Assembly (NCBI GenBank): GCA_013239625.1
Contig: MU053588.1
Coordinates: forward strand, 1,684,508-1,748,507
From: Lama guanicoe
Lineage: Eukaryota
Direction of reading: 5' to 3'
DNA length: 64,000 bases
Positions 8,815-51,141 of this stretch are shown one piece after another (within the stretch, counting starts at the first letter, position 1; each line of letters starts with the position of its first letter). The notes beneath the pieces are model-generated. The model did no database searches. It saw only the letters and a program-made list of their open reading frames with translations, and was not told the DNA's origin. The translations under genes and the position numbers were made by a program.

Positions 8815-8875
8815 GATCCTTCTCACCACAGTTTTCCAGGCAACCACTACCAATCGATTAGAGTTAGCCTGTGAA
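8815..8875 (+). other. SAMD4B: Candidate 61-nt non-coding 5'UTR exon of SAMD4B
   Basis: Acceptor cttcatttcttcag|GATCC at 8815 and donor TGAA|gtaaaa after 8875. Size and position (~2.3 kb upstream of the ATG exon) resemble my recollection of human exon 2. The donor is weak. Confidence 0.5.
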
Positions 8876-11209: not shown

Positions 11210-11416
11210 GAGCCTGGAGAGGCGTGGCTGGACCAAGACCTCCCCCAATGTGAGCAGGTGTCCTCCTCCCCTCACCACCCATTGCCACCACGCCAGGGAA
11301 CATCCTCAAACCCTGGTCCTCAGGGGAGAGGTAACAGGAGTCCGGAGCCGAGACCATGTGACGGCGCTGGCCCTCACCACCGCCGTCCCCCCAACCCTGG
11401 CCCCAGGCCCGGCACC
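11210..11416 (+). other. SAMD4B: 5'UTR part of the SAMD4B ATG exon
   Basis: Acceptor cccttgcttccttttccag|G at 11210. Contains ATGTGA at 11248-11253 and 11356-11361. Confidence 0.8.
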
Positions 11417-14400
11417 ATGATGTTCCGAGACCAGGTGGGCATCCTTGCTGGCTGGTTCAAGGGCTGGAATGAGTGTGAACAGACAGTGGCCCTGCTGTCG
11501 CTTCTGAAGCGGGTCACCCGCACCCAGGCCCGCTTCCTGCAGCTCTGCCTGGAGCACTCGCTGGCGGACTGCAATGACATTCACCTGCTGGAGTCAGAGG
11601 CCAACAGTGCTGGTGAGTCTCCACCCCTAGAGATGGGAACACAGCAGGAGGGAGATCTGGAACAGGAACAGGTGGCTGAGGAGGCCTACCCAACAATGGT
11701 GATAAGAAATGTGGGCTCTAGTGGGTGGGGAGTCCCTGACCTCCCAAGTCATCATGATGGCTCTCCTGGGGCTTTGTTGCCAAATATCCTCAGGCATGGA
11801 GTGGGGGACTCCTGGGGGAGTGTAGTGCAAACTGGAAACTACTCATAGCAGAGGAAAGATTACATAGCATGGCTTGTCTGGGCAGCTGAAAGGAACAGGC
11901 TGAAATCATTACCTATGAAAGGGGGATGAAAGATGAGCATTAATTCATTTCTCAAGCTCTAGGACATCAGAGCTAGGAGGGAATTTTAGAACTCTTCCAA
12001 AATTCACAAGTCATCTTATACTATTCTTTACCCCTCCAAAGGTAGGTTGGACTTAAGGTATAAACAGCTTGAAGAGAGTTTTGAATTTAGATATAATCCA
12101 CATCAGCTCCCTGAGCACTCAAGTAGAGAAGTGCTGTCTATCCCATGAGGTTGGCATTAGGATAGATGAGCTAGGGTTCTCTAGAACCTCTCTCTAGGGC
12201 CCCAAGTGTAGACAGAAGTCAGTCCAGAGAACCATTTCCAGGGGCATCGCTGAAGCCATTCTGACCTTCTGGGCCTCCACAAGGCTGGATGGAGAGCTGT
12301 TGACCTTGGTGACAGGTGGGAGAGATGGAGGCCAAAGAAGAGGGCGAGTTAATGTGCACCTGAAAGCTAGCTGGGGAAGGGACCCAGGGACCTCATGGAG
12401 AATGTTTCCAAACCTTTCCCACCTTCTTCCCCATGATAACAGTTCACAGTGAGCCTCTACAAGCCAAGTACTGGCTTCACTTATATAGCAACTTTGAAAG
12501 CAGTATTTTTCGGTGGCTCTAGAGTCAGACTTTTAGGTTTAAATCTCAGTTCTGTCACTTACCGTATAACGAAGTATCTTAACCATTCTAAGCCTTGGTT
12601 TCCTCATCTTTAAAATCAAGATGATACCTGTGCTTACCTTCTAGGTTAATTGTGAGCTCTGAGAACAGTGCTTGGCATGTAGTAAATACTCAATAAATGT
12701 TGGTTGTTTTTATTGTCGGTAGCTCGTTTAGTGTTCACAACAATCCCATGAGATAAGTAGTGAAACTGTCCCCATTTTTTAGGTAAGGAAATCAGCATGG
12801 GCTGCTAGGCTTAGGTCCTGGGGACCCACAGAGTTGCCTGGCTTCCCTCATCTTCCCAGGTACATTTGCCTTAGCAACAGTCGTCTTTATTTTTCTAAAT
12901 CTTTATGTATACATCACAGAAGCACCATGGTTGTGGGGGAAGACAGTTCCTTAGGCCAGGAGTCACATCCACTTAAGTCCCTGTCTGATAGACAGTGAGC
13001 AGCAGTGACCCACCTTAGCTACAGCAGGCTCAGCACTCAACCGTTTCACAACTCTCCCATCCTCCCCACCAGGAAGAGCTCCCCTCTGCTCTCTGTGGTT
13101 GTGGTATGTCTGCATCCCCAGAGTGGGGGCTCCTTTGTGGCAGGCCAGTGTCTTACACATCACCACCACCCCATCCTGAGCAGACAGTTGGATGAGCACT
13201 GAGTGCCAATCTTGGCTGTATGTCAGAATCACACTGGTACTGCTGTTTATTAGAGCATTTTTAGTTTTTGCTTTTGCTTTCAAAATTTGCCAGAAATCAA
13301 ACCATATGAAAGGTGAAAAGTGGGGTCTCCCTTCCAGACTTCCATGTTCCCAGTTTGTGTATGTCTTATGAGATACTCTGTACACATGTGAGTACATACA
13401 TGTTCTCCTTCCAGCTTTTTCATTTTTGGTTGTTTTAACTCAGCAGAATATCATCCATATTAACCAATTTGCTTTTTTCACTGAACAGTATTACTTGAAG
13501 ATCATTCCATATTTGGCACATACATATGTACCTCGTTGTTAACGGCTGCTTGATGGTAAGAATAGGTAACAGAGAGCCTGACCTGTGTAGCAAGCAGTGC
13601 TTTACCTTTATTACTCATAACCCTCAGAACAGCTCTATAAGGAAGGTCGTACAATCCCCCATTTTACAAATGAAACTGAAGTCTGCAGAGACTAGTGACT
13701 TGCCCTGGGTCGTACAGCTAGTCAGAGGTGGAGCTGGAATTTGACTTCAGAGTTCTTGCTCTTGATCAGTAGGCTGTACTGCATGGTGTGTTCTTATAAG
13801 GAGTGCTATAATGAGTACCCTTTAAGGATCTCTAAGGTAAATTCTTAGAATTTTTGTGGGACTGCTAGTTTGAAGTTATGTACATTTAAAATATTTTTTG
13901 TTACCATGTTGCCCTTCAAAGACTTGGTACACTTTATACTGAGGACCATCCCAGACGGTTTACATTGAGATATTGGGGGTAAGGCTTGTCTTTGAGAATT
14001 GCTGTGGAATGACTTGACTAATGAGTGAATATATGAATCAAGGTCTTTAGCTACAGCCCCATGTCAGATGGTGAGAATAAAGCAAGCTGATACTTAGGTG
14101 GATGGAGAGTTAGGGAAAACTTAGAAAGGGGAAAGAGAGGGAGAGTCGTGGTATGTTCCAGAATCAGTAGGAAGCCTGCCAGGATTAGAGTAAAGTATGG
14201 CTGGAGAGGGAAGTGATCACAGAGGTTAATTCTATAGGGCCTTGAATGCCTCTTCCCTAGGAGACATGTGGGCTCCAAGACTAAGGAGGCCTATGTCTCC
14301 TGTCTCATTCCTACCCTCAAGTAGAGCAGCCGCCCTGTCTTACTTGTGAAGAAAGGAGCTGCTTCCTGGGCTTGGGGGCTTGCCTTGTGGAAGGAGTTCT

Positions 14401-29400: not shown

Positions 29401-32268
29401 GCGCCTGAGGGTTATAGGGGTAGATGAGTAAGAGATGGGGCCCATCCACCTAAACTGACACCCTGCCTTCTGCTCTCTCACAGCTGGGCATTTGGCTCCA
29501 ACTCACTCCCCATAGCTGGCTCTGTGGGGATGGGAGTGGCCCGGCGGACCCAGCGACAGTTCCCAATGCCTCCGCGGGCCCTTCCGCCTGGTAGGATGGG
29601 CCTTCTGAGCCCCTCGGGCATTGGGGGTATCTCCCCCCGACACGCCCTCACCAGCCCCAGCCTTGGGGGCCAGGGCCGACAGGTGAGCCAGTTGGAAGGA
29701 GAGGGCCTGGCACATCTGGTTTTGGGGTGGTGGTGCCTGAGATGTGTGTGTCCTTCTCTTTGTGTCTGGGCCCAGTTTAGAGGGAAGAAGACTCCCTTGC
29801 CAACTCTACCACTCTAAGTCTGGGCCTCTTCCCCACTCACCTCCTGCTCTCTCTTGTCTCCCATGGCCATGCAGAACCTGTGGTTCGCCAACCCCGGAGG
29901 CAGCAACAGCATGCCCAGCCAGAGCCGCAGCTCTGTGCAGCGTACCCACTCGCTCCCAGTCCACTCATCGCCCCAGGCCATTCTCATGTTCCCTCCAGGT
30001 AAGGTGCCCACCCTTGAGACTGCCTCAACACCCCTAGCTTGCCTTTCTTTTCTGTTCTGGGTCTTGTACGAACTATCCCTTGCATGTGTTGTGTGTGTGT
30101 TTCTCTCTCTCCAGCTCATTGTGTTCATCCCACACATCCCCACCTTCCCCTCTTCCCCCTCTCCCCCGGCCCCCAATCTTCGCATCCCTGATTCCCGCCG
30201 CCCTATCTCTACTTCCCTCCCTGTATGGGTCTTGTACGAACTATCCCTTGCATGTGTTGTGTGTGTGTGTTTCTCTCTCTCCAGCTCATTGTGTTCATCC
30301 CACACATCCCCACCTTCCCCTCTTCCCCCTCTCCCCCGGCCCCCAATCTTCGCATCCCTGATTCCCGCCGCCCTATCTCTACTTCCCTCCCTGTGTCATA
30401 ATCTTAGTGTTTTTGTCTCTGTCACCATCTCTTTCAAGGATCATTAAGTACTCAGCTTGGAAGGGGTAGAGGGGATGAGACAAAGTGAGTTTTCTTTGGA
30501 GGGGAGCCCTGCCTGTCAGTCCACTGGCATGCTTCAGAAGTAGACTTCAGCTCTTGGATCAGATTCTATACTAAAGGTTGTTGGAAGTGAAAGGGCTGTT
30601 TTCTCTCTGCTCACAGACCAGCCTAGAGATGGGAGATCAGAATGAGGGCAAAGTGGGCAAAGGAGAGGTTAGAGAAGTGTTAGCCCTGCATTGCTCAATG
30701 AGACAGAGGTGACATCCTGTGCCAGGCCTGCTGCTGGGTTCTGAGGCTGCAGAGGCAGAGAAGGCTGGTCTGGAAAAGGGAGAAAACTTAGATTTGCCTT
30801 TGACCCTAAGCTCTTAATGTCACAAACAGCCAAATCACTACAGATTCTTAATTTATGAGATTATGTAGACTGCTATCTCTGGGAGGCAGAAGACCCTGTT
30901 AGTCATGTTCATTCTAGCACAGGGCTTGGCATATGGTAGACATCTGTAAATGATGTTAAATGACTGGATTGATGAACTACAGGAGTGAAAAATTAGACCA
31001 GTTCTTTTTATTGGTATGCTGTGTGCTGGACTGTGTGTCAGACAGCTTTCCTGCACTGTTGAAAAATCCTCCCAACTGCACATGTGAAGGCACTGATTCT
31101 ATTCCCATCTTATTAGTCATGAGTCTGAGTCTCAGTGAGGTGACTTGCCCAAGGTCAAAAAATTTTTTCATTAAGGAGAGACAAGTAGATGGTCTAACAT
31201 GGCCTGAGATCAGGATTCAGAGGGGACGTGGTGAGAGGTGAGGTTGGAGGGTGAGAGCAGGATCTTCTACACCCACATAAAAAGATCAGCATTCCTCTCA
31301 AAGCAGTGAGGAGCCCAGGAAGGGTTTTAAGCAGTAGATGGGGGTTAGGGCTACCCAGGGGTCTGGTGGGCTGAATAGGAGGCCCTTTGAGAGGTAGTAT
31401 GAGGACAAGCCCCATGGCTGCTGTCCACATTCGCCCCACCTGCCAGGCCTGCTTCAGGCACATCCTGCCCAGAGGAGCAAGTCCATGTGGGGTGGGAAGG
31501 GTTCTAATGAAGCTTCTGCACCAGGTACAGAGCAGGTCATCAAGGAGCATAGGGCTGTCCAGTGCTCAGGGCAGCTGCCTAGACTGTGCCAGAGGGAACG
31601 TGCAGTGAATGTGTGGCCTCCAGGCAGCTCCCCCTGCTTTTCATCGCTTCCTTTGTCTGCAGGTCAGGTTTTCTCTGTGTCACCAAGCCTCTGTCCTTGT
31701 CATCTGCCTGCTTTGTGACACACCCAGGCCTGTCTCTGTCCTTCATCTCTGCCCAGCCACACCTTCCATCTGAGTGTGCGCATGTCTCACACTCTGCTGT
31801 TTCCATCTCTTGCCTTTTGTCTCTTCTCTCTCTCCCTTTCCCTTTCGTGCCCCTCAGCCTCTCCCTCATTCAAGCCTTTGTCTTCACGTCTCTGCTCTTC
31901 ATCCATCCAGTCCTTACTGTTTCCATTCTCCTTTCTCCTACCCAGACTGCCCGGTCCCTGGGCCTGACCTGGAGATCAATCCCACTCTGGAGTCTCTGTG
32001 TCTGAGCATGACAGAACACGCCTTGGGTGGTGAGCATTTCCTCTTTCCCTGACCCAGCTCCCACCTACCCGGCAGCGTCTCCACCTCTGAACTGAGCAAC
32101 TCAGAGTCATCCTGAGGGGTCCCTAGGGGAGGCCGGACTCCAGGGAGGGCCTGACTGGGATGACAGGCTACCTGAGCGCTTTTTCTTGGGCCTCCTGCCA
32201 GCTGCTGATCTTCCTCCCTTCCTCCCTTTCTTACCACAGATGGGACAGACAAAACTTCCACCATCTGA
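11417..32268 (+). CDS. SAMD4B: Smaug homolog 2 (SAM-domain RNA-binding translational repressor), 12 coding exons, 695 aa
   Basis: Coding exons 11417-11612, 20322-20792, 25150-25389, 25934-26043, 26208-26294, 27037-27379, 28121-28206, 28712-28830, 29484-29682, 29875-29998, 31946-32029, 32240-32268. All GT-AG with consistent phases, total 2088 nt. N-terminus [25 protein letters not shown] domain [55 protein letters not shown]-terminus DGTDKTSTI*. The promoter and first exon lie upstream of the window. Confidence 0.97.
12510..12715 (+). mobile_element. MIR SINE
   Basis: ctctagagtcagac...tttcctcatctttaaaat...gaacagtgcttggcatgtagtaaatactcaataaatgtt. Confidence 0.75.
13560..13780 (-). mobile_element. 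MIR SINE
   Basis: ccccattttacaaatgaaactgaag...gtgacttgccctgggtcgtacagctagtcagaggtggagctggaatttga. Confidence 0.7.
14470..14610. mobile_element. MER5-like DNA transposon remnant
   Basis: tcagaatcacctgg...cagattcctgggcccc...aatcagaatc...gcttgaga. Confidence 0.55.
16480..16730 (-). mobile_element. MIR SINE
   Basis: aggctcagagaggttaaaggactggccca...gagctggattttgaatccaggc. Confidence 0.65.
17885..18100 (+). mobile_element. MIR SINE
   Basis: ctggaggcagacggacctgggttcagatcttggctctgttac...gtgacttaacc...tttcctcatctgcaagatgggg. Confidence 0.7.
20935..21270. mobile_element. MER102-like hAT-Charlie remnant
   Basis: aaaatccagatttcagcttctcttgaaaattcaaaagatctgacaac. Confidence 0.55.
21400..21650 (-). mobile_element. 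MIR SINE
   Basis: atctcatttaatcctcat...cccattctacagatgagagcactgagactcaaaagaggtgaagtc...aaggtcacag. Confidence 0.75.
24180..24910 (-). mobile_element. L2 LINE fragment
   Basis: ttcagggaaggcctcagaagaggtgatact...gtcagatttgcattttaagaaggatccgtgtggctgctgtg...aggaggctgtggcagtaa. Confidence 0.7.
30058..30394. repeat. Near-perfect tandem duplication, unit ~168 bp, in the SAMD4B intron after 29998
   Basis: 30058-30224 and 30226-30394 are identical except (GT)5 versus (GT)6. Confidence 0.95.
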
Positions 32269-34420: not shown

Positions 34421-39057
<4,637 letters not shown>

Positions 39058-39620
39058 GACGATGAAGAAACAGCAACCCTAGACAAGAGCCTTAAGAAAG
39101 TACAAGAAAACGCAAAGGGGCGTGCCGGACGACCAATCCGAGGCAAGGCTCGGGTTGGCGCCGCTCTCCTCAGGGATAGGGTCAGAGTAAGGTGTACTGG
39201 TGAGAAGAGTCCCAGTAACACGAGCAATACTTAGTATTCAGGTAAACGCGCAAGCAGCGCCACGAACTGACTCCCAGGTCCGGCTCCACCAACTGCCGCC
39301 AAGACGCTGAAGACCGCAGGTCGCCTCACACCGTGAGGCCTTCTGGGAAATAGAGTCTGATTGGTTATACATCCGGATTGGCGAACGGCTGCGTAAAGGG
39401 CGGAACGAGGCAGAGAGAGCTTCTTGTGATTGGTGTATTGGTATTTCAGTCTGGACGTCGGATTTGAGAGTCAAGTGTTGGAGGGCGGTTTCTTTCCCCT
39501 CATTGACTGAAGTTTCTGGGAGGCGGAACTAACTAGCAAACAGGGCCTAGAGACGAAGACGCTAAAAAGAAACCGGGAAGACGCACTTGTGACGTACGTC
39601 CGGCGCCGTAAGCGAGGAAG
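39058..39620. promoter_or_regulatory. PAF1/MED29 bidirectional CpG-island promoter
   Basis: Divergent ATGs separated by 563 bp. CpG-rich. ATTGG/CCAAT boxes at 39133, 39360, 39377, 39429, 39437. TTCTGGGAA at 39341. TGACGTA near 39590. YY1-like AAGATGGC overlapping the MED29 ATG. Confidence 0.85.
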
Positions 39621-42600
39621 ATGGCTGCGTCCCAGCAGCAGGCTTCAACGGCTTCCTCTGCCGCTAGTGTGTCGGGTCAGGGTTCGGCTGGTGGCTCGGG
39701 TCCCCAGCAGCAGCCGCAACCACCGGCACAGCTGGTGGGGCCTACCCAGAGCGGACTTCTGCAGCAACAGCAACAGGACTTCGATCCTGTGCAGCGCTAT
39801 AAAATGCTCATCCCGCAGCTGAAGGAGAGCCTGCAGGTGATTGGCCAGGAGCTGCGAGAAGCGAGCCAGATTTGGCTTTCCGACTTCGCTGGGGCGGGCG
39901 GAGGGGTTATTTAGTCTGGGAGAGAGCAGAAGGAGCGTTTGGCAGGAATGAGGAGTGAAACTTGGTACTCTTCGTGAGACCAAAGTGATGCTCTGTGGAG
40001 TGACAGTGCGATGTCTTGAGCCTGAGATTGACAGGAATTCGAGTGGGAGGGAGTTTAAAAGAGAACAACCTAGCTCTGGTGGTTAAAGCCCGGGGAAAGG
40101 ACTTGCCTATACAGAGACTTACCGTGATTGCTGAGTGAAGAAGGTCTCTAAACCATGTCCAGGAGGTTACTGGCGAGAACCCCAGGTGAGAGCGGGCCTC
40201 TGGAAAAATACGGGTGGTTACTGCCCTAGAGAAGAGGAAGCGGGAGTTTCTCTGGAGTGACAGGAGGGCAAGTGCGAAGTGAAGAGGAGGCCTGAGATTG
40301 GTTGTATCTTAAGGAAGAGTGAGGTCTACCAAAAGTGTCCTCTTCTGTTTCTCCATCTCCCACACCTTTTTTTGTAACTAGACCTTGATGAAGGTTGCAG
40401 CCCAGAACTTGATTCAGAACACTAACATTGACAACGGACAGTGAGTACTTTCCTTTCCCCAGGAAATCCTATCTCTATCCTAGTCTTAGAAACTCATCCC
40501 CCCCCTGCACTCCACTCACCCTCGTTTTTCTCTTATTTTCAAGCCTGGCTCCCTAGCGCCTGACCTTGCCCGTTTTGTCCCTTGTACTATTAACTGTCCC
40601 CTGGGCCCTGCCTCGGGTCTCCTGGGCCTATACCTGGTTTCTTGATGGATATTTGGTTGGGTAGTCACGTATTTCCCAGAGATGGCGATCCATTCCCCAC
40701 CTTCTTCTCCTGGACTGTAGGAAAAGCAGCGACGGACCCATACAGCGCTTTGACAAGTGTCTGGAGGAGTTCTATGCACTCTGTGATCAACTAGAGCTCT
40801 GCCTGGTAAGGGGCCTCCTAGACACCAGGTGGCCACAGCCCTGCCTTAGTTCCTGGGGCTTTGGGAACCTTGATTCAGTCAATCAGCACATGCTCACTGA
40901 GTACCTCCTGTGACCCAGACCTGTGCTGATGCTGGGGACATAGTGTTGCCTGAGCCTTGCCCTCACAGAGCTTCCAGTTCAGTGGGGTGACAAATATATC
41001 CTCAAACATTGTCAGCCCAGAGTAGTCAGGGCTCTGATGGGAGAATCTCAGGTCATGGAGGCTATGTCGGGGGAAGCACAGGCAGAAGGGTCAGGGATGG
41101 GATGGGGAATGGGGAGGCATAAGCAGAGGGGTCAGGATTAAAATGAGGGAAGTTCAGGGGGCTGTGGAAGCCCAGAGAAGGCACCTGAGCCTGCCTAGGG
41201 TAGGGTTAGGGAGGAAGTGGCTCAGGGTAGGCTACTAGTGGAGAGCACATCTGAGCTGAGGCTGGAACAGAAATGGAAGAGGGGCGGGAGTTGAGGGGAG
41301 GGCAAATGGCTAAAAGCACAGCCTCTGGAATCAGAGGTACCATGAATCTCTACCTCTGAGCCTTGGGTTCCTCTTTTGGAAAATGGATTTTGGGGGAACA
41401 CTCAGCACAATCTTGCATGTAAAGCACATAACATTGTACTAGGCACATGGTAAATGTTTCCTGTAGTATCATCATCATCATCATCGTTATTTTGAATTGG
41501 GAATTGAAGGAAAACTCAGTTTGAGAAGCCTGGTAGCGGTAGAAGGGTGTTCCAACCAGAGGGAACAGCTTCTGTTTTAAGTTCCCTTTAGGAACATTAC
41601 AACATTCGGTCAGGCTGAAGTGTGGTAGGCACTGGGGCTTGTTGGATTTTGAACGTAGCCCTGAGGGCGCTGCGGAACCATGGAGGGTTTCAAGCAAGGA
41701 AGAACATGGACTCATTTGCTTTTTTAGGAACATGCGCATGCTCTGGCTGCCAAATGAGGGGTGGGTTCCGGGTGGGGGGCTGCAATTGGAGGCTGCGAGC
41801 CCATGGCAGGATTGAAGAGGGCTAGGTTCCAGCAGGGCAGGTCCTAAGGAAGTGGGGACAGGCAGATGGGAGAGACTCTCAGAAGGCTTTGCGCACAGGG
41901 CCGTGGGACTGACTATGGTAGGAGACTCCAGGAGGTGGCCCAGGGCTCTCGTGGAATGGTAGGGCCATCCCTGAGACAGGGACCCAGGGAAAGGAGCAGC
42001 TTGAGGGGCAGAGTCTGAAAGGTCTGGGATTTTAGGGGAAGCTGGACGCACATATGTGTGTCATCAGTGCAGAGGTGGGAACTGAGTGGTGCCTGTGGGT
42101 GCCCTAGAGGGTGTGAGAATGAGAGGAGGACCCGGGACCTGGGAACTGGCACATTTAAGGAAGACTAGGAAGTACCTAGAAGGACCAACCAGAGAAGTAG
42201 GAGGAAAACGAGGAGGAGCAGGTGCCACCAGAGAAGCCAGTGCCAATGCCAGGCCTGGGGTCAGGACAGTGACAGTAATAGCAGTTGACATTCATCAGTT
42301 AGCACTTAAGAGCCAGGACCTGCATCTGTGTCTCATGTACTGCTCTCCGCATTCTCACCTTATGAAGTAGTACAGGTGGTTATTAAACCCATTTTCCAAA
42401 GGAGGAAACCGGCTCAGAGGAGCAGCCACATGCCTGAGGTCACCCAGCAAGTGATTGGTAGGGCCAGGCTCTGACCCCAAGACCCCAGAAAATTCCAGAG
42501 ACCAAAAAGGTTACCCTAGGCTGGCCCTTTGGGTGGGGTTGGCAGTACCCGGAGTGAGGCTGATGTCACACCTTGCCTGCCCCTCCACAGCGCCTGGCAC

Positions 42601-42833
42601 ATGAGTGCCTGTCACAGAGTTGCGACAGTGCCAAGCACTCTCCGACACTGGTGCCCACAGCCACCAAGCCTGATGCCGTGCAGCCTGACAGCCTGCCCTA
42701 CCCGCAGTACCTGGCGGTCATCAAAGCCCAGATTGCCTGTGCCAAGGACATTCACACTGCTCTGTTGGACTGCGCCAACAAGGTCACAGGCAAGACGCCT
42801 GCACCACCTACGGGCCCCGGGGGCACCCTGTGA
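39621..42833 (+). CDS. MED29: Mediator complex subunit 29, 4 exons, 200 aa
   Basis: Exons 39621-39836, 40382-40440, 40721-40805, 42591-42833, total 603 nt. MAASQQQAS...QQQQQDFDPVQRYKMLIPQLKESLQTLMKVAAQNLIQNTNIDNGQKSSDGPIQRFDKCLEEFYALCDQLELCLRLAHECLSQ...GPGGTL*. Confidence 0.97.
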
Positions 42834-42947
42834 GCTGGCAGGGCTGGGAGGGGGCAGGCAGTGTGGGGAGGGGTTGGGGAGGGAATGAAGAGTGGCCTCA
42901 AAGCAGCTTTGTCTCTGACTTTTCTTCCCGCCTGAGCCCTGCGGCCG

Positions 42948-42966
42948 GAGCCAGCAGGGGGCAGCA
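42948..42966 (+). promoter_or_regulatory. CTCF motif (forward)
   Basis: GAGCCAGCAGGGGGCAGCA matches the CCASYAGRKGGCRS core. Confidence 0.6.
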
Positions 42967-44477
42967 GAGGCCGCCAGGGAGCACGCAAGGCGGGGCCTTG
43001 CCTCCCGGCTGTCTGTCCTTCCTGGCTGAGAGGGTGGACTTCCGGATGGCGCCTGTTGCAGACCTCTTCCAGAGGCTCTCCCCCTACCTGGCCTGGGTGT
43101 GGAGCCCTGACTGGGCCGCTCTCCCACAATCCTTCCTTGATTCTCTCCCAGTTTGGAGGTGCTCTCTGTGTCTGCTCTTTTTCCAGCTGTTCTGTGTGTC
43201 TCGTGTCATTCAGTCTCTTTTTGTCCCTGTCTCCCTATCTCTGACCAGCTCTCTCCTAGTCACCCTTTGCTGTCTTCTGCCCCCACAGCGGACTGGGACT
43301 TTGCCTATGCAGGGGCCAGAATGGGAACCAGAACCCCTGGGTTTCCTGGGGCTCAGGGAGGGAGCTTCACTTCCACGGGCTGCAGCCATACCCAGGGATC
43401 CCCACACCTCTCATGTCAGCCCAGCCCCCAGTGCGCTTGACCCAGGAAAGGGGAAGTACAGGGGTCTAGGCCCTGATCTCAGCATGCCTGGTTGGGGAGC
43501 AACCCAGCCTGGGCCCCCACCCATACCCAGGGCCTGCGTCAGCAGTACTCAGACCTAGGGCGTTGTGCAATCCGCGGTGAAGCCTGGCCCAGCTGGATGC
43601 CTGGGTCCCTGTATTTTTAGCCCCAAAGGAGAAGTGAAAAGGCCCCAGCAGGGGTGACTCATCAGCCCTGGGGAAGAACCCAGGCGCCTGGGCCCCAGCT
43701 CCGGGAAGCAGACCTTGGGGAGGGGGCTTCAGGGAGGGGGTGCCCCACCAGGTTCCCCACTTCCCTGAGAGTGAGAGCTTCAGGGAGCTCAGCCATGGCC
43801 TTCAGGCCTGGGCAAGTGCAGGGTGGAGCTCCCAGGCCAGGCCCAGCTGGGGAGGGGGGTGTGAAAGGCTCAAGTGACTCAGCCAGGTTGGGGGACTGCC
43901 CCACCCAACACCTTCTATGCCCTGGTTGCCATGTCACCACCCAGAGGCCTCCTGTCCTGGACCCCACATCTGCAAGGAAAACCCGGGACCATGGCGACCT
44001 GTGATTCACCCAGAGCCCAAGTCTCCACACTGGAATCCTGGGAAATGACCTGCCGGGGGGGCCGGGGGGGGGGGCCGGGGGGTCTACACATCTCAGGAGT
44101 TCCTTCCCTTTCTCCATGTCCTTCCTTGAAGTGCCAGGCACATAGGACAAGCCTCTTGGGTGCTAACTGATGCTGCCGTCCACAGGTAGAATTTCTTCTT
44201 AAGGGAAGCCACAGCTCTGCCCATTTATCTGACTGAATCAGCCCCCACCCCCAGGTGACTCCCCAGATCTTCTAGGATAATCTCCTTTACTAAAAGTGAA
44301 CTGATTATAGACTTATTCACACTTACAGAATACCTTCACAGCATCATCTAGATTAGTGTTTGATTACATAACTGGGGACTGTAGCCTGGCCAAGTTAACA
44401 CATTAAACTGACCATCACAACCTTGTCCTTGTCTATTTGGCACCCGTACCCACCTCCTTACCCATACTTAGTCTCCA

Positions 44478-44483
44478 AATAAA
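44478..44483 (+). terminator. Candidate MED29 poly(A) signal AATAAA
   Basis: First AATAAA I found downstream of the MED29 stop; ATTAAA also at 44402. Confidence 0.45.
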
Positions 44484-46739
44484 CACAAGGACAGAGTCAA
44501 TTTCAACCTAAGGTGACACAGTTATCTCTGGTCAGCCGGAAATGCACTGTTTCCCCAGAAAAGCCTGTTGGCTTCCAGCCGGGGGACACACACTCAGGAT
44601 GAGGTAGAGCTGGCTCTGTGAGGTGGCATCCACACAGCAACATCACACACAGATGGGGACATGGCATCCCAGCAGCCAAGATAGGGGCCCAACAGTACCT
44701 AAAACCACGCCCAGAGAGGCAACAGAGACCCCTGTGGGCAATGGGGTGATGGATACACAGCTCAGCAACCACACACAGGGTGGAAGTTGTGCACCAGGAA
44801 GCTGAGTTCATTTGACACATATATGCTGAACATCTAGTTTGGGCCAAGCCCTGTACCCAGTGAACCAAAGATCCCTGTCTTCCTGGAGGTGATGTTCTAG
44901 AGAGAGACAGTTAAGTGTGATAAAGTAAAACACAGCATGTCAGATGGTGAGAAGCTCCAAGAAGGACAATAAAGTAGAGAAGTGAGATCAGAAATGGAGA
45001 GAGAGAATAGGAAAAAAAAAAAGTACTTAGGAATAAATCTCAATGTAAGATTTGCCCACAGATTTACATTACTTTATTGGAAAACATGAAAGTTGGAGAG
45101 CTTAGTTTGGGTAGTGGTTCAAGTGTATTAATATGATCTGTAAATAGATTTGCATGCATTTATTATTTGTTAAATAGATGGCAAGATTATTTTCAAACCT
45201 TTTAAAAATCCTTTGCTTAGGTCACAGAGGCCTCATTGAGAAGATGGTACTGGAGTGAACTTGAAGGAGAGGGAGTAAGTCCTGTGGACATTCTAGGGGC
45301 AAGAGCTTTCCAGGGAGAGGGGAGAAGGTGCAGAGGCAGAAGTGTGCTGGTGTGTTTGGGGAATAATGTGGAGGCCTGGACCACAGTGAAGAGACAGGGA
45401 CAGGAGAGGCCCTTAGTGAAGATTCTTACTGATCATTAGACCCAGAGGGAGATTGTACAGCCTGGTGTGCAACCACCCACGCTGAAAAGGGGGGGGGATG
45501 AAAGCCACAGCCACACAGGGCAGAACAGACCAGGTCACACATGACACCCCTCCCCCTAGCACAGGAGAGTGTAACCCACCATCCTCCAATCACTGTCCCC
45601 AGAGTCTCCGTCCCAGTGACGGTCCCATAAACAGATTCTAAAGGAACAATCCAACCATGTGAATACACAAACAACCCTCTAACCACCACTTAACCCACTA
45701 TCTCTCACCCCATCGCAGACTTTGCCCATCATGGGCTGACTCAGCCCTGCTCTCAGCTCAACATTATCAAAAGCAGCCTGGGCTGAGTTTAGATAAGGCT
45801 TCTCACGTTCAAGCGTGTGCGTGCGCGCGTGTATGCCACAGCACGGCCCACGGAGGCCGGCAGGAACAGCAACATGGAGCCAGGAGTGGGCCAGCTGCCC
45901 TCCCCATCTGCGCACTGTAGACGTCAGGAACCAAAGTTCACGGGTTTCACTGCCTTGTGACTGAGCCACAGAGGAACTACTCCCAGACACTGGCCTCCTG
46001 TGTTTTCAGCTACACCCCAAGGACACAGACACACAGGAACACTATTCACACACCTGATGACCTCACAGTGAGCTACAGATGCCTTGCACACAGCCACCAC
46101 TGCCTACAGTCACACAGGTGCTTACACACACCCTCAGCTTACAAGCTGTGTGCGCCCAGGTCATCACACCAAAGCGCACAGTCACCCTCACCAGCCTCCC
46201 TCCAGGAGTTACACGCACTTAGTCACTTCAGATCCCACGGTGGTTCAGAGCTACACACAGATGTGCAGGTAGGTATGTCACACGTTCTCATGGATGCCAC
46301 CTCAAAGCCAGTTACAGCTGACTACACACTCCCGCCCCCAGGGATGGTTAGAGCAAACACGGTATGGTCAATCACACAGGCATCGGTGGTTTCATTTATT
46401 CACACAACCACGTCAGGCGGGTTGTAAGGACACAGCCTTGATGCAGGAAACTGGGCGCACTCGTGTCCCACACCTGCTTCCCTGTTTGCACACCCAGGCA
46501 CGCCAAGGCCCTCCCCCCTCCACTTCGCACCTGCAGTGCTCAAGCTGTTCACTGTGTGGTACACGCGCTGCTTGGCCCGCGCGGCTGCGCACACGGCCAA
46601 TCGTGCCGGGCGGACACATGGCCCTGGCACACGTGCCGCGAGTACACGGTCCCCAACCCGCCCGCGCACTCGCACCAGCTCTCACACCCCCGCATTTCCC
46701 GTCCTCGCTTGTTTTTCTGGAAACTCTGCTCTCCGTTCC

Positions 46740-47820
46740 CCTCCCCCAGGCCGGAAGTGCTTGCCGTATTTTTAGCCTCTCTGGTTTCCGCCCCTTTCCC
46801 CCTTGGTCGGCCCGCCTAAGACCTGCCCCTCAGAGCCCCGCGGGGGACCCCGGCCATCCCCTTCCCCGCCGTCATTCCAGAGGGGATTCCCGGCCTTCGC
46901 CCGGGCACGGATTTTCCCGCTGGCTACGTGGGGAGTGGGGTGGAGTCCTGCCCTGAACTTCCTCCTGGGCTGAGACGCCCGAGGCCTGGACGGGTGGGGG
47001 TGGGGAGGATGGGAGCCAGACTCCTAAATGGGAGGGAGGAGGGGGCTGGGGGCTCGGACTCCGGGGGGTTTGAGGGCAGGGGGTGGTGCTGGGGGCCTGG
47101 ACTCCCGGGTCTGATGAAGGAAGGGGCTGAGGGCCGGGTCTCCTGGGTCTGAGCGAGGAGGTGGCTTGGAGACCGCGACCACTAGATAGGAGCAAGGAGG
47201 GCCTGAGGCCCGGACTTTTGGGACCCCCGCCCCCGTCATTGTTTCGAAGGGTGGTCAGTCCTTCAATGCGCAAAGCCCCCTCCAGCCTCTTCGAGAGTCG
47301 CCCAATCCGAAGCGTTCTGGCTCTAGGGCCGATGAGTCAGCAGATAGGAGAGGGGAGGGGGTCAAGCCTGACTCAAGGATGGGAAATACTCCTGGTCTCC
47401 AGGGAATCGAAATTGGTATCCTTCCTCCAAGATCGCGGCCAAAGCCAAGCTGGACTCCACCGGGTACCCCAGGGTGGTCCCCACCATCCCTCTGGTTTTA
47501 CCGCTGCCTTAGTCCTGCTAGCGGCACAGGGATTTTAGAGCCCAAACGAGCGGCGGGTGCCAGGCACCTCCCCATTCCCCCTTTTCCCGTAGTACTCGAG
47601 CCTCTGTTTACAGGCGACAGAAGCCCTGGTTACAGAGAGGAACCCGGGCGTCCGGGCCGAGCCTCCTCGTCACGGCTTCCAGGAAGCCCCCCTTCCCCGC
47701 CCCTAGCGAGTGAGTCACAGGCGAGAGGGAGGCTGCAACCGTGCCAGAGCCGCCCGCAGCTCACGGGACCGGCTGGGAAGGCCCCTCGGCACCAGAAAGC
47801 GCCGCACCAGGGATTCCCCC
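46740..47820. promoter_or_regulatory. CpG-rich upstream enhancer cluster of ZFP36
   Basis: ETS CCGGAAGT near 46751. NF-kB GGGGATTCCC 46882-46891 and GGGATTCCCC 47810-47819. AP-1 TGAGTCA/TGACTCA at 47333, 47369, 47711. GAS TTCCAGGAA 47677-47685. Confidence 0.65.
46970..47230 (-). repeat. MSR1-like ~37-bp GC-rich minisatellite (degenerate)
   Basis: Units such as ctgggggcctggactcccgggtctgatgaaggaagggg and ctgagggccgggtctcctgggtctgagcgaggagg match the reverse complement of CCCCTCCTCCCTCAGACCCAGGAGTCCAGGCCCCCAG. Confidence 0.7.
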
Positions 47821-49139
47821 GTGCTCTGTCCGACGAGTAAGCCGCATGCCTAACAGAATCTCCCCACCTCAACACAAGCCCGCAGTCTGCAGTTGCAGTC
47901 TTGCAAGAATGAACTTTTCAACCATTATAACTGCACTCCGTGGCAATGATTTATTTCTACCCCCGTATTTTCTCTGAGGGCAACCAGCTCACCAAGACCT
48001 TCTTTAAAAATTAGTTATTTTCTCCAGATCTTAAGAAAGTCTCAGATCAACCCTTTGTCAGTAAAAGACCTGTCAATAAGGGGAGTGGCTTCTGCAAATT
48101 TAGAGTTCTCTCAAGGCACACCTCCTTATAAGAAACCCATCCGACCATCAGTTGGGGATGACCCATTTCTTCCCTCTTCAGACACCTTTCCACCAAGGAA
48201 ACCCTCCACCGTAATAAAAGACCTCCTCCTTTCCAATCTTTTGAGTTTTCTCTGAGTGTGAACTCTTAACATAATTTAAGGCCCTGGTATTATAGGCTGC
48301 TCCCATTTACCAACTGCAGAATAACAGCCTCTCGGCTTGAGTCTCCTCGTGTATAAAATGGGCATAATAATACTTCCCTGAGTTAATGTATGTAAAGCAC
48401 TTTCATGCAACAGTGCCTAGCCCAGAAGCGATCAGAAATGCCATTATCTGCGTGAGGGTGAGAAGTCACAGCTGCCCTGAAATAGGAAAGGAGGCCCCTT
48501 TCCAGCCTTGCCAGGTAACCGGGACCCCAGCCCCCTAAACCCCGTGAGTGGAGGAGGGGAGGGCGGTCCAGGTCTCTGGATCTGAGAGCGAGACTGTACC
48601 AGACTGCCAAGTCTCAGGAGAGAATTCTCCACCAAGCCTGTTGGTCTCCTCTCCCCGTTTTGCTCCAGAGGATTCTCTGTGGATATTTGTTTCTCCGTGT
48701 CTTCTTTTTTCTGTTTCTTTATGTGACCCTCCCTCCCCTTTCTCGCTCTGAGTTTGTTTCTCTGAAACTGTCTCTTATCACGTCTTTTCTAGGATGCCTT
48801 CTCACCTCCCTTCTTCTCCTTACCCTGTCTCTCCCTCTCTGTGCATGTCTCCCTGTGTGTCTCTCCCTGTTTTTTCTTTGCGTCCCATCACTTCTCTCTC
48901 TAGCTCCCTCTGCGCCTCTCCCCGCCCCCGTCGGTCGGTCTCTCCTGCACACGCCCTCTCGGCCTCTGCCCTAGTCAATTCCCCCAGGAGCCCTTCCCCC
49001 ACCTCCGTCCCAGTTCCCTTCTCAGCGCCTCAGTCTCGAGCCTTGAAAACTGAGCCGACACCGCCACCCCACGCACTCCCCGAGGGGTCGCGACCGCCAA
49101 CGGGCCAGGTTCTGGCGAGTCCGGGCCGGGTCCTCCTCC

Positions 49140-49343
49140 GCCCAGGCCCCGGCGGGGACCTGGCGGGCTGCGCTGGGGGCGCGCGTCCGGGAAGCGCCCC
49201 TCCTGGGCCTGCCCTCCAGGGCCCGCCCCCCGGCCCCGCCCCCAACGGCTGGATAAAAGCGGCGGCTCTTCCAGCTCGCCGCAGCCTGTCTCCAGCGCTC
49301 CCACGTTCGGCCGTCCCTTCAGCCTTCGGCCATCCGCCGCGCC
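49140..49343 (+). promoter_or_regulatory. ZFP36: ZFP36 proximal promoter and 5'UTR
   Basis: GC boxes (GGCCCCGCCCC near 49232), CGTCCGGGAAGC 49184-49195, TATA-like GATAAAA 49252-49258, Kozak gccATGG at 49344. Confidence 0.75.
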
Positions 49344-51141
49344 ATGGATCTCACCGCCATCTACGAGGTGAGCCCCCGCTGACCGGCACCTCGGGTTCCT
49401 CTTGCTTGACTCCCTTCTCCAACTAGGGCTCTCTAGCGCCATAAACTCCCGCCCGGGACTCCTGGCTTCCTTCTCAAACTGAGGTTCCTTTACGCCTGCC
49501 TGACATTCTGGCCCGGGGTCCCTGCTTCCCTTTTAAGACCAGTGTCATCCTCTGGAGGTGAAAATGGAGCCCATGACTTTCGGGTCTCGGCGAAAACATG
49601 AGTGGGACGGCCCTCGGAGATGGAAAGCTGAAGGACTTTTCTCAGATTGGGGCTGTCTGGAGGCGGAAATGGCCCCACACCTGCCTTACCCCTGTAGTTG
49701 CTGAGGGCGCGGTTTTGCGCGGAGGCGTTTCTGGGGCTGGAGTCTCAGGGTACAGGGAACCGAATTCTGTCTCTCCACTCCCTGACCCAGAGGACGACTC
49801 TGGGAACTCTAAAACAGAAGAGATCGGGACTCCTAGGTTAATTTTGTCCGCTCCTCCAGTTGTGAAACTGGAGAACCCGACGTGCGGAATCAGATCCCGA
49901 GAGACCCAGAGGCTTAAAACTGGAAAAGAGTTGTGTCCCCTGACTTTAGGGCCCCTCTTGATTCAGCGGTGGGAGCTTGGTTCCTTGGATCCCCTGGGAT
50001 AGGCTTCAGTCGCGAATAAACTCAGAACCTCCAAATCGGGATTCTTGCGATCCGGAACCCACGGGTGTCTGCGGGTGGGTGGGGCTCAGGTCAGGAGCCC
50101 ACAAACCGGACTGGCAAGCTCTTGGGTGCCCTGCAGCTGGGGCGGGGCGTCACCCTGCATTTTCGGTGTCTTAACCGATCCCTGTTCCCACAGAGCCTCC
50201 TGTCGCTGAGCCCTGACCTGCCATCCGATCATGGAGAGACTGAGTCCAGCCCGGTCTGGGCCTCCTCGGGACCCTGGAGCCTCAGTTCATCTGACTCCAG
50301 CCCGGCTGGGGTCGCTGCCCGGCTGCCTGGCCGCTCCACCAGCCTGGTGGAGGGTCGCAGCTGCGGCTGGGTGCCCCCACCCCCAGGCTTCGCACCCCTG
50401 GCTCCCCGCCCAGGCCCTGAGCTGTCGCCCACCTCACCTACTGCGACCCCCACCACCTCATCCCGCTACAAGACTGAGCTATGTCGGACCTTCTCTGAGA
50501 GCGGGCGCTGCCGCTATGGAGCCAAGTGCCAGTTTGCCCATGGCCTGGGAGAGCTGCGCCAGGCCAGTCGCCACCCCAAGTACAAGACGGAACTCTGCCA
50601 CAAGTTCTACCTCCAGGGCCGCTGCCCCTACGGCTCGCGCTGCCACTTCATCCACAACCTCAGCGAGGACCTGGCTGCCTCCGGCCACCCCCACGTGCTG
50701 CGCCAGAGCATCAGCTTCTCAGGCCTGCCTTCAGGCCGCCGACCCTCGCCACCACCAGCAGGCCTAGCAGGCCCTTCTCTGTCCTCATGCTCCTTCTCGC
50801 CCTCCAGCTCCCCACCACCACCACCTGGGGACCTTCCACTTTCACCCTCTGCTTTCTCTGCTGCCCCTGGGACCCCTGTGGCCCGAAGGGACCCCACCCC
50901 AGCCTGTTGCCCTTCCTGCCGAAGGGCCACCCCCAGCAGCGTCTGGGGGCCCTTGGGCGGCCTGGCACGGAGCCCCTCTGCACACTCCCTGGGATCTGAT
51001 CCCGATGAATATGCCAGCAGCGGCAGCAGCTTGGGGGGATCTGACTCGCCTGTCTTTGAGGCTGGGGTTTTTGGGCCACCCCAGCCACCTGCAGCTCCCC
51101 GGCGACTCCCCATCTTCAATCGTATCTCCGTTTCTGAGTGA
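49344..51141 (+). CDS. ZFP36: Tristetraprolin (TTP), tandem CCCH zinc-finger ARE-binding mRNA decay factor, 2 exons, 323 aa
   Basis: Exon 1 49344-49367 (MDLTAIYE), exon 2 50194-51141. Two fingers: [26 protein letters not shown] and [36 protein letters not shown]2/14-3-3 site. C-terminal CNOT1-binding motif [12 protein letters not shown]. Confidence 0.98.

What the first reader, a model, noticed from the sequence alone, without database searches (positions are those of the whole stretch)
11248..11387. Twin AUG-UGA start-stop elements plus a GC hairpin in the SAMD4B 5'UTR
Seen: the only two upstream ATGs in the visible 5'UTR (11210-11416, plus candidate exon 8815-8875) are both followed directly by TGA, at 11248-11253 (ccaATGTGA) and 11356-11361 (accATGTGA, -3 A). 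The second stop runs straight into a hairpin: GACGGCG (11360-66) pairs with CGCCGTC (11381-87), extended by TGG/CCA across a C-C mismatch. That element lies 55 nt before the main ATG-ATG. Known: elongation-less start-stop uORFs, as in ATF4, can hold ribosomes and tune reinitiation. Inference: a translational repressor whose own synthesis is gated by a tandem start-stop/hairpin module. I am not aware of this being described for SAMD4B.
Basis: partly seen in the sequence, partly recalled or inferred. Interest (0 to 1): 0.7.

Follow-up and report, generated by a model that had tools for sequence, protein, structure and literature searches.

The report
SAMD4B start-stop pair with hairpin
The leader of the SAMD4B mRNA carries two conserved start-then-stop signals, one followed by a hairpin, which probably explain why making this RNA-silencing protein depends unusually strongly on the ribosome-restart factors DENR and MCTS1.

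Summary
ATG-TGA lies at 11248 (weak context) and 11356 (-3 A), and a 10-bp hairpin lies at 11360-11387. Human SAMD4B has the same two 1-codon uORFs, 107 nt apart, with 40S footprints on both. Published supplementary tables make SAMD4B a top DENR/MCTS1 target: log2 translation efficiency -1.0 in mouse Denr knockdown, -1.44 in DENR-KO HeLa, -1.5 or -2.7 in MCTS1-deficient T cells (row 1 of 98), and +1.09 on MCTS1 rescue; SAMD4A is unchanged. Read-through translations from mammal-like relatives keep both elements and the stem, while the loop varies. A fish-like SAMD4B locus also has a start-stop followed by a different hairpin. Best reading: ribosomes are captured at the start-stops and reach the main ATG by DENR-MCTS1-dependent reinitiation, as for JAK2. 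This causal link and the hairpin's role are inferred, not shown. An ATF4-like stress switch is not supported. Against: 40S signal on these stops falls in DENR-KO cells, and no covariation test was possible. A new member of a known class and a good test substrate.

The parts
11210..11612 (+). First coding exon of SAMD4B: 207 nt of 5' leader plus 196 nt of coding sequence
   Evidence: Pyrimidine tract and AG before 11210, GT-GAGT from 11613. Read-through ORF P0252 joins GC-rich upstream sequence exactly at this acceptor, which suggests a spliced RNA contig (inference).
11248..11253 (+). Start-stop 1 (ATG-TGA), weak context (-3 C), no stable downstream hairpin
   Evidence: downstream fold -5.2 kcal/mol; human counterpart at transcript position 174; compatible residues in 9 of 9 main-frame and 6 of 6 frame+1 read-through ORFs.
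11356..11361 (+). Start-stop 2 (ATG-TGA), -3 A context, 55 nt before the main start; probably the main capture site (inference)
   Evidence: human counterpart at transcript position 281; compatible residues in the same 9 and 6 ORFs.
11360..11387 (+). 10-bp GC hairpin at +5 to +32 of AUG2; overlaps the stop codon; holds 4 of the leader's 9 CpGs
   Evidence: -16.0 kcal/mol, pair probabilities 0.98-1.0; 0 of 9 stem codon columns vary against 34 of 104 elsewhere, and 3 of 5 loop columns vary.
11417..11422 (+). Main start, ATG-ATG in acc context
   Evidence: the product matches Pfam PF25479 and named SAMD4B proteins.
8815..8875 (+). Candidate 61-nt non-coding exon (unverified); no ATG; near-cognate CTG-TGA at 8869-8874
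   Evidence: AG and GT flanks; skipped in the spliced-looking ORFs P0252 and P0255; not tested with reads.

Best explanation
The two ATG-TGA elements are functional start-stop uORFs that make SAMD4B a reinitiation-dependent mRNA. Steps: (1) scanning 43S complexes partly initiate at the weak AUG1 and mostly at AUG2 (inferred from context; 40S footprints on both stops are shown in human). (2) The hairpin directly behind AUG2 must be melted as the AUG approaches the P site; this slows scanning and raises capture despite the unavoidable U at +4 (inferred, about 0.4 on its own). (3) The 80S terminates at once; DENR-MCTS1 clears the initiator tRNA from the 40S (established for the class). (4) The 40S scans 55 nt, regains ternary complex and starts at 11417. 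SAMD4B output is therefore kept low and follows DENR-MCTS1 activity rather than eIF2-alpha phosphorylation. The gene-level dependence is shown in published data; that these two elements cause it is inferred.
For: Human 1-codon ATG-TGA uORFs at 174 and 281 of ENST00000598913, in a list of uORF stops that carry 40S footprints (PMC7494916). Translation efficiency, log2: -1.006 in mouse Denr knockdown, adjusted p 4.7e-21, 12th row by size of change in a sheet of 10,529 rows, and second-lowest p as I infer from the p/adjusted-p ratio (PMC6547434); -1.44 in DENR-KO HeLa and -2.70 in MCTS1-deficient T blasts, first of 98 shared genes, above ATF4 (PMC10841658 Table S4); -1.52, adjusted p 6e-15, and +1.09, adjusted p 6e-8, in two xtail tables that I take to be the T-blast and the rescue sets; SAMD4A -0.12, adjusted p 0.99. 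A Kozak-based model already predicted up to 30.5% dependence against a 37% genome-wide maximum (PMC5473865). Conservation: start-stop and stem codon columns 0 of 15 variable against 34 of 104 elsewhere (Fisher p 0.004; stem only 0 of 9, p 0.034). Two decayed copies (P0255, P0236) change the stem, and P0255 also changes AUG1. Fish-like locus L001: its only ATG in the 222 nt before the main start is a start-stop with -3 A, followed by a hairpin of -19.5 kcal/mol (0 of 3,150 shuffled windows as stable). Six of six fish-like read-through ORFs that reach this far are compatible with it.
Against: No mutation of these AUGs has been seen; the link is by inference. 40S signal on both stops is lower, not higher, in DENR-KO cells (log2 KO/WT -0.73 and -1.82, not hits), unlike JAK2. 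A long human isoform with at least 15 uORFs could carry the dependence. The mouse leader sequence was not seen. Mammalian conservation rests on amino-acid read-throughs from a few related clusters, which cannot fix third positions, favour frame-preserving relatives and are not independent. One cluster breaks the terminal pair at 11387. No compensatory change was observed. The window-to-L001 leader alignment is not significant (1,127 of 2,000 shuffles score as well). The hairpin is below the 12-20 bp, -19.9 to -34.1 kcal/mol range of uAUG-ds, and its 5' arm lies inside the ribosome when AUG2 is in the P site (footprint extent recalled).
Confidence: 0.72

Rival explanations
1. The start-stops are functional and DENR-dependent, but the hairpin is incidental: a GC-rich leader folds by chance, and the stem is conserved for another reason such as a protein-binding or splicing motif.
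For: 39 of 200 shuffled UTRs contain an equally stable 28-nt fold. No compensatory change was seen. The stem starts at +5, closer than the roughly 14-nt spacing I recall as optimal. In HOXA11 the proposed start-stop and stem-loop cooperation was disputed.
Against: The stem is invariant while the loop varies, and 4 of 9 CpGs sit in the stem (binomial p 0.021). A hairpin of different sequence follows the fish-like start-stop at a similar place, core pairs +10/+31 to +17/+24 with probability about 0.9.
Confidence: 0.45
2. The DENR/MCTS1 dependence comes from uORFs in upstream exons of long isoforms, and these two start-stops add little.
For: ENST00000314471 has at least 15 uORFs, three further ones with 40S footprints. 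Coding-sequence footprints cannot be assigned to an isoform. 40S signal does not rise on the start-stops in DENR KO.
Against: The start-stops are uORFs 1 and 2 of ENST00000598913. One-codon uORFs are the class most dependent on DENR in human cells. The dependence is seen in mouse and human. None of those three other uORFs is a 40S hit either.
Confidence: 0.12
3. The elements act mainly as ribosome-retention gates (repeated initiation, termination, splitting and rejoining) that cut ribosome flux. DENR loss shifts 40S into re-joined 80S on the element rather than blocking one recycling step.
For: PMC13338717 reports the smallest 40S rise and the largest 80S rise on start-stops after DENR depletion, which fits the falling 40S signal here. 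It is compatible with the best explanation and differs in step 3.
Against: No 80S data for these two sites were seen; the 40S values may be noisy.
Confidence: 0.3
4. ATF4-like stress switch: the pair raises SAMD4B synthesis when eIF2-alpha is phosphorylated.
For: Two uORFs in series; PMC11790910 speculates that multi-uORF layouts may sense phospho-eIF2-alpha; skipping AUG2 after AUG1 would give some buffering.
Against: Neither element overlaps the main frame or blocks reinitiation; start-stop constructs respond little to stress. No stress data for SAMD4B were seen.
Confidence: 0.1
5. The leader encodes an N-terminal extension, and ATGTGA is a by-product of x-Cys-Glu and x-Cys-Asp codons.
For: The main frame is open through all 69 leader codons.
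Against: Frame +1 is open too and the leader has only 26 T in 207 nt. Human spacing is 107, not 108, which shifts the frame. The L001 main frame is closed upstream. No long protein with the extension was found among 17 candidates (weak evidence).
Confidence: 0.03

Closest known systems
JAK2 5' leader (two start-stop stuORFs, MCTS1-dependent; PMC10841658)
   Same: Two start-stops in series and a strong fall of translation efficiency without MCTS1 or DENR; SAMD4B falls as much or more in the same tables (-1.52 against -1.35; +1.09 against +0.95).
   Different: JAK2 was tested by mutation and shows 40S build-up on the elements. SAMD4B is untested, and its 40S signal falls. JAK2 has a third uORF; I saw no hairpin mentioned in the passages read.
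Start-stop elements / 1-aa stuORFs as a class (PMC13338717, PMC5473865, PMC11790910)
   Same: AUG directly followed by a stop, purine at -3 for AUG2, GC-rich flanks, DENR dependence.
   Different: A tandem pair with a stem on the second; among the strongest effects in the tables; similar layout in a fish-like orthologue.
uAUG-ds hairpins (PMC10499604) and the HOXA11 start-stop plus stem-loop (cited in PMC13338717)
   Same: A stable hairpin just downstream of an upstream AUG.
   Different: This stem is shorter and weaker (10 bp, -16 kcal/mol) than the reported range and overlaps the stop codon. No structure probing or helicase data exist here. The HOXA11 case is disputed.
Human ATF4 leader
   Same: Contains a start-stop; is a DENR/MCTS1 target.
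   Different: ATF4's stress induction needs uORF1 and an overlapping uORF2; the SAMD4B short leader has neither.

Membership tests
Start-stop element (1-aa uORF) | [quoted passage not shown] | tested here: met
Start-stop element (1-aa uORF) | Lies in the mature mRNA leader | tested here: met
   Listed on two human Ensembl transcripts; P0252 joins at the same acceptor. Not shown with reads for this window's own organism.
Start-stop element (1-aa uORF) | Not nested in a longer AUG uORF | tested here: met
   No other ATG in the exon or candidate exon; holds for the short leader only.
Start-stop element (1-aa uORF) | Ribosome occupancy on the element | tested here: inconclusive
   40S footprints on both human stops; read depth and 80S peaks not seen.
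Start-stop element (1-aa uORF) | Represses the main ORF (mutation raises output) | not testable with these tools
   Needs reporter or allele editing.
DENR-MCTS1-dependent stuORF target (JAK2 type) | Main-ORF translation efficiency falls on DENR or MCTS1 loss | tested here: met
   Published orthologue data in four comparisons.
DENR-MCTS1-dependent stuORF target (JAK2 type) | Strong Kozak context on the 1-aa uORF | tested here: inconclusive
   AUG2 has -3 A, AUG1 has -3 C; predicted 30.5% dependence; no measured initiation rate.
DENR-MCTS1-dependent stuORF target (JAK2 type) | 40S build-up on the uORF stop without DENR | tested here: not met
   log2 KO/WT -0.73 and -1.82, not hits. PMC13338717 finds this rise weakest for start-stops as a class, so it may not be defining for them.
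DENR-MCTS1-dependent stuORF target (JAK2 type) | Dependence is lost when the uORFs are mutated | not testable with these tools
   Bench test.
uAUG-ds (downstream hairpin enhancing uAUG use) | Stem of 12-20 bp, -19.9 to -34.1 kcal/mol, downstream of the uAUG | tested here: not met
   10 bp, -16.0 kcal/mol against the range; L001 11 bp in the local fold, -19.5.
uAUG-ds (downstream hairpin enhancing uAUG use) | Structure forms in cells and raises uAUG initiation | not testable with these tools
   Needs SHAPE or DMS probing and compensatory mutants.
ATF4/GCN4 delayed-reinitiation switch | A permissive first uORF plus an inhibitory long or overlapping uORF | tested here: not met
   Both elements are 1 codon and none overlaps the main start.
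Smaug recognition element (autoregulation) | CNGG(N)0-3 loop closed by a stem of 4 bp or more (definition recalled) | tested here: not met
   None in the exon or in L001; the 3-bp candidate at 11225-11235 has pair probability under 0.05.

The most novel reading that the evidence does not exclude
A start-stop with an abutting hairpin is a bony-vertebrate-wide module in the SAMD4B leader. The hairpin is what makes ribosome capture, and so DENR-MCTS1 dependence, extreme. It would define a structured subclass of start-stops and tie the level of a general mRNA repressor, but not of its paralogue SAMD4A, to reinitiation capacity.
Probability: 0.3. Interest if true: 0.7.

Novelty: new member of a known kind. 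Interest (0 to 1): 0.5.

Why it matters
SAMD4B is at or near the top of DENR and MCTS1 target lists from two laboratories and two species, yet none of those main texts names it. The leader offers a simple natural substrate (two start-stops, one hairpin, no other AUG in the short form) for open questions: how start-stops retain ribosomes, what DENR-MCTS1 does on them, and whether local structure sets their strength. Because SAMD4B represses other mRNAs, its loss could contribute to secondary effects in MCTS1 or DENR deficiency (inference). The class and the factors are known, so this is a well-supported new case, not a new mechanism.

Tried and rejected
N-terminal extension: rejected (see rivals). 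Smaug autoregulation through an SRE in its own leader: rejected. Tandem duplication as origin of the pair: an 11-nt repeat follows both AUGs (75 of 3,000 shuffles reach 11 nt), but relatives differ at 11376, so the repeat looks specific to this lineage. Leader alignment between the window and L001: not significant, so I cannot say which mammalian element the fish-like one corresponds to; distance and frame point to AUG1 (163 against 169 nt), context and hairpin to AUG2. No related loci in genome contigs (0 of 302 candidate stretches) or viral contigs (0 of 29); the metagenome scan gave 3 of 465. With two unalignable DNA stems no covariation test could be run. Sequencing runs: no RNA holder listed on record; no read layout was obtained, so splicing in this organism is untested by reads. 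No whole genome is held. SAMD4B was not found in 3 supplementary files of PMC11057154, and in PMC7494916 only in 1 of the files searched, one file being unreadable. Supplements not seen that may bear on the claims: PMC13338717 (start-stop gene list), bioRxiv 10.1101/2021.07.26.453809, PMC11790910 (Denr and Eif2d datasets). Earlier scan notes: nothing found. Rows left out of the conservation count: P0255 and P0236 (frameshifted, decayed copies), P0004 (covers only the last residues), P0122 and P0124 (no upstream part).

Full report
Observation. The exon runs from 11210 to 11612, the main ATG-ATG is at 11417, and the only ATGs in the 207-nt leader part are at 11248 and 11356, each followed by TGA. 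The first has C at -3, the second A. The stem at 11360-11387 folds at -16.0 kcal/mol with pair probabilities of 0.98-1.0. Two or more start-stops occur in 38 of 100,000 shuffles of this leader, but the test is post hoc and 1,417 human genes have one. The hairpin is unremarkable as such (39 of 200 shuffled leaders hold one as stable). Its place behind AUG2 is less so (63 of 3,000 windows; most stable of 71 ATG-stop sites in the window).

Gene identity. The 65-residue coding part is identical to named human SAMD4B, later exons follow, and PAF1-, MED29- and ZFP36-like sequences lie downstream (found with recalled peptide motifs). This is the intron-containing gene.

Human orthologue. Supplementary file 7 of PMC7494916 lists uORF stops that carry 40S footprints in HeLa cells (9,982 rows). 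SAMD4B has 7 rows. Four are 1-codon ATG-TGA uORFs: positions 174 and 281 of ENST00000598913 (its uORFs 1 and 2), and the same two as uORFs 14 and 15 of ENST00000314471. The spacing of 107 nt matches 108 here. So both elements lie in annotated mRNA and meet ribosomes in human. The one-base difference also shifts the frame, which argues against the coding-extension idea raised by the open main frame.

Function at gene level. SAMD4B translation efficiency falls when DENR or MCTS1 is lost. Mouse NIH3T3 Denr knockdown: log2 -1.006, adjusted p 4.7e-21, 12th row by size of change; the ratio of adjusted to raw p implies second place by p (my calculation; PMC6547434). PMC10841658 Table S4 lists 98 genes hit in both DENR-KO HeLa and MCTS1-deficient T blasts; SAMD4B is the first row (-1.44 and -2.70), ahead of ATF4. 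Two xtail tables of that paper give -1.52 (adjusted p 6e-15) and +1.09 (6e-8); I assign them to the T-blast and rescue comparisons from the JAK2 values and section 12. I cannot explain the gap between -1.52 and -2.70. SAMD4A is unchanged in the second table. PMC5473865 predicted 0 to 30.5% dependence across isoforms. One result runs the other way: 40S signal on the two stops is lower in DENR-KO cells (log2 KO/WT -0.73 and -1.82; direction checked), whereas JAK2 shows build-up. PMC13338717 reports that start-stops as a class show the smallest 40S rise and the largest 80S rise, and a larger fall at the second site could reflect loss of flux from upstream, but both are my inferences.

Conservation in mammal-like relatives. 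No mammalian DNA could be fetched, so I used gene-caller ORFs that read through the leader. Of the best 120 of 219 hits, 2 cover the leader in the main frame; their clusters add 7. All 9 keep Cys-Glu at AUG1, Pro-Cys-Asp-Gly-Ala-Gly at AUG2 and the 5' arm, and His-Arg-Arg on the 3' arm. A frame +1 search gave 5 hits and 2 further cluster members. Six of these 7 keep the residues over AUG2 and the stem; the seventh, P0255, is frameshifted inside the stem and was left out as a likely retrocopy (its flank looks LINE-1-like to me from recall; Pfam found nothing). Over both frames 0 of 9 stem columns and 0 of 6 start-stop columns vary, against 34 of 104 other columns and 3 of 5 loop columns (Fisher p 0.034 for the stem, 0.004 with start-stops). 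These columns and sequences are not independent, third positions are invisible, and one cluster changes the terminal pair at 11387. The loop codon takes four states that fit decay of one CpG, while the four stem CpGs show no visible change. No compensatory change was seen. P0252 joins GC-rich sequence right at the acceptor and skips 8815-8875.

Fish-like orthologue. L001 encodes a SAMD4B-type exon (83% identity) that resembles a protein named from a carp (P0108). In the 222 nt between a likely acceptor and the main ATG its only ATG is followed by TGA, with A at -3, 163 nt before the start. A start-stop appears in 10% of shuffles of that stretch. It is followed by a hairpin of different sequence, -19.5 kcal/mol, core pairs +10/+31 to +17/+24 with probability about 0.9; 0 of 3,150 shuffled windows are as stable. 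Six further fish-like ORFs reach this region and all fit: three read Asn-His-Val-Arg, three read Thr-Met-Trp, where Trp stands at positions that are TGA in L001, so these look like TGA-as-Trp gene calls (inference). The leaders of the window and L001 do not align beyond chance, so descent from a common element is likely but not shown, and the acceptor in L001 is assumed. The paralogue locus L002 has four ATGs in the corresponding stretch; its one ATG-TGA ends an 8-codon uORF and has no stable hairpin.

Mechanism. Most likely, scanning complexes leak past AUG1 in part and are caught at AUG2; the 80S terminates at once; DENR-MCTS1 frees the 40S, which scans 55 nt and reinitiates at 11417. A two- to threefold fall without these factors implies that at least half of SAMD4B synthesis passes through reinitiation (inference). 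The hairpin covers +5 to +32 of AUG2, so its 5' arm is inside the ribosome at AUG2. It cannot be an intact roadblock there, but unwinding its inner pairs would coincide with arrival at the AUG and could slow scanning. I put this role at about 0.4. Shown: elements, human presence and footprints, gene-level dependence. Inferred: causality, relative weight of the two AUGs, the hairpin's role. The short leader lacks an inhibitory overlapping uORF, and published reporters show little stress response for start-stops, so an ATF4-type switch is unlikely.

Comparison and novelty. It works like the JAK2 leader and belongs to the start-stop class on every sequence feature tested; the mutation test is missing and the 40S build-up test is not met. 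It resembles uAUG-ds but misses its size range. Searches for SAMD4B with uORF (3 papers), DENR (2), Smaug2 and translation (9), reinitiation (1) and MCTS1 (1) showed no paper on this leader; I opened two of these (PMC13382800, PMC9893680) and judged the rest by title and abstract start. SAMD4 has 0 mentions in the main texts of PMC13338717, PMC6547434, PMC5473865, PMC11790910, PMC10841658 and the bioRxiv preprint. Figures are not held and may label it, and subscription journals are not covered.

What I saw of each paper. PMC13338717: abstract, sections 26, 28, first part of 29, passages; supplement unreadable. bioRxiv 10.1101/2021.07.26.453809: passages. PMC7494916: passages, supplement rows, first part of file 7. 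PMC6547434: passages, first part of the supplement. PMC5473865: passages, one supplement row. PMC10841658: passages, sections 12 and 13, supplement rows, first part of file 4. PMC11790910: passages, section 9, no supplements. PMC10499604: passages, section 6. PMC11057154: listing and supplement search. PMC9893680 and PMC13382800: passages. PMC8813921: listing only. The optimal hairpin spacing, ribosome footprint extent and SRE definition are recalled.

Verdict. The hairpin is the open and more novel part. Interest 0.5.

Noticed in passing
window 30058-30394: A near-perfect tandem duplication of about 170 nt (140-nt copies 99% identical) in a late SAMD4B intron; it may be real or an assembly artefact.
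   Followed up: no
window 8869-8874: The candidate non-coding exon ends in a near-cognate CTG-TGA, in the same frame as the two ATG-TGA if spliced.
   Followed up: partly
L001 1978-2006: Upstream of the assumed acceptor the fish-like locus has ATG-ATG-TGA and a 3-codon uORF; whether this stretch is exonic is unknown.
   Followed up: no
L002 670-1200: The SAMD4A-type locus has four upstream ATGs, one ATG-TGA ending an 8-codon uORF; human SAMD4A is not MCTS1-dependent.
   Followed up: partly
P0255, P0236: Two diverged, frameshifted copies of the SAMD4B leader and start, probably retrocopies, which could serve as neutral controls.
   Followed up: partly
window 11210-11416: Two of three frames are open over the whole leader; the leader holds only three stops, all in one frame, two of them the start-stop TGAs.
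   Followed up: yes
window 38300-50600: PAF1-like (minus strand), MED29-like and ZFP36-like coding sequences with CpG islands at 39001-40000 and 46501-49500 (names from recalled motifs).
   Followed up: no
PMC8813921 (listing): DENR is reported to be phosphorylated and stabilised in mitosis; if so SAMD4B synthesis might follow the cell cycle. Seen as a search listing only.
   Followed up: no
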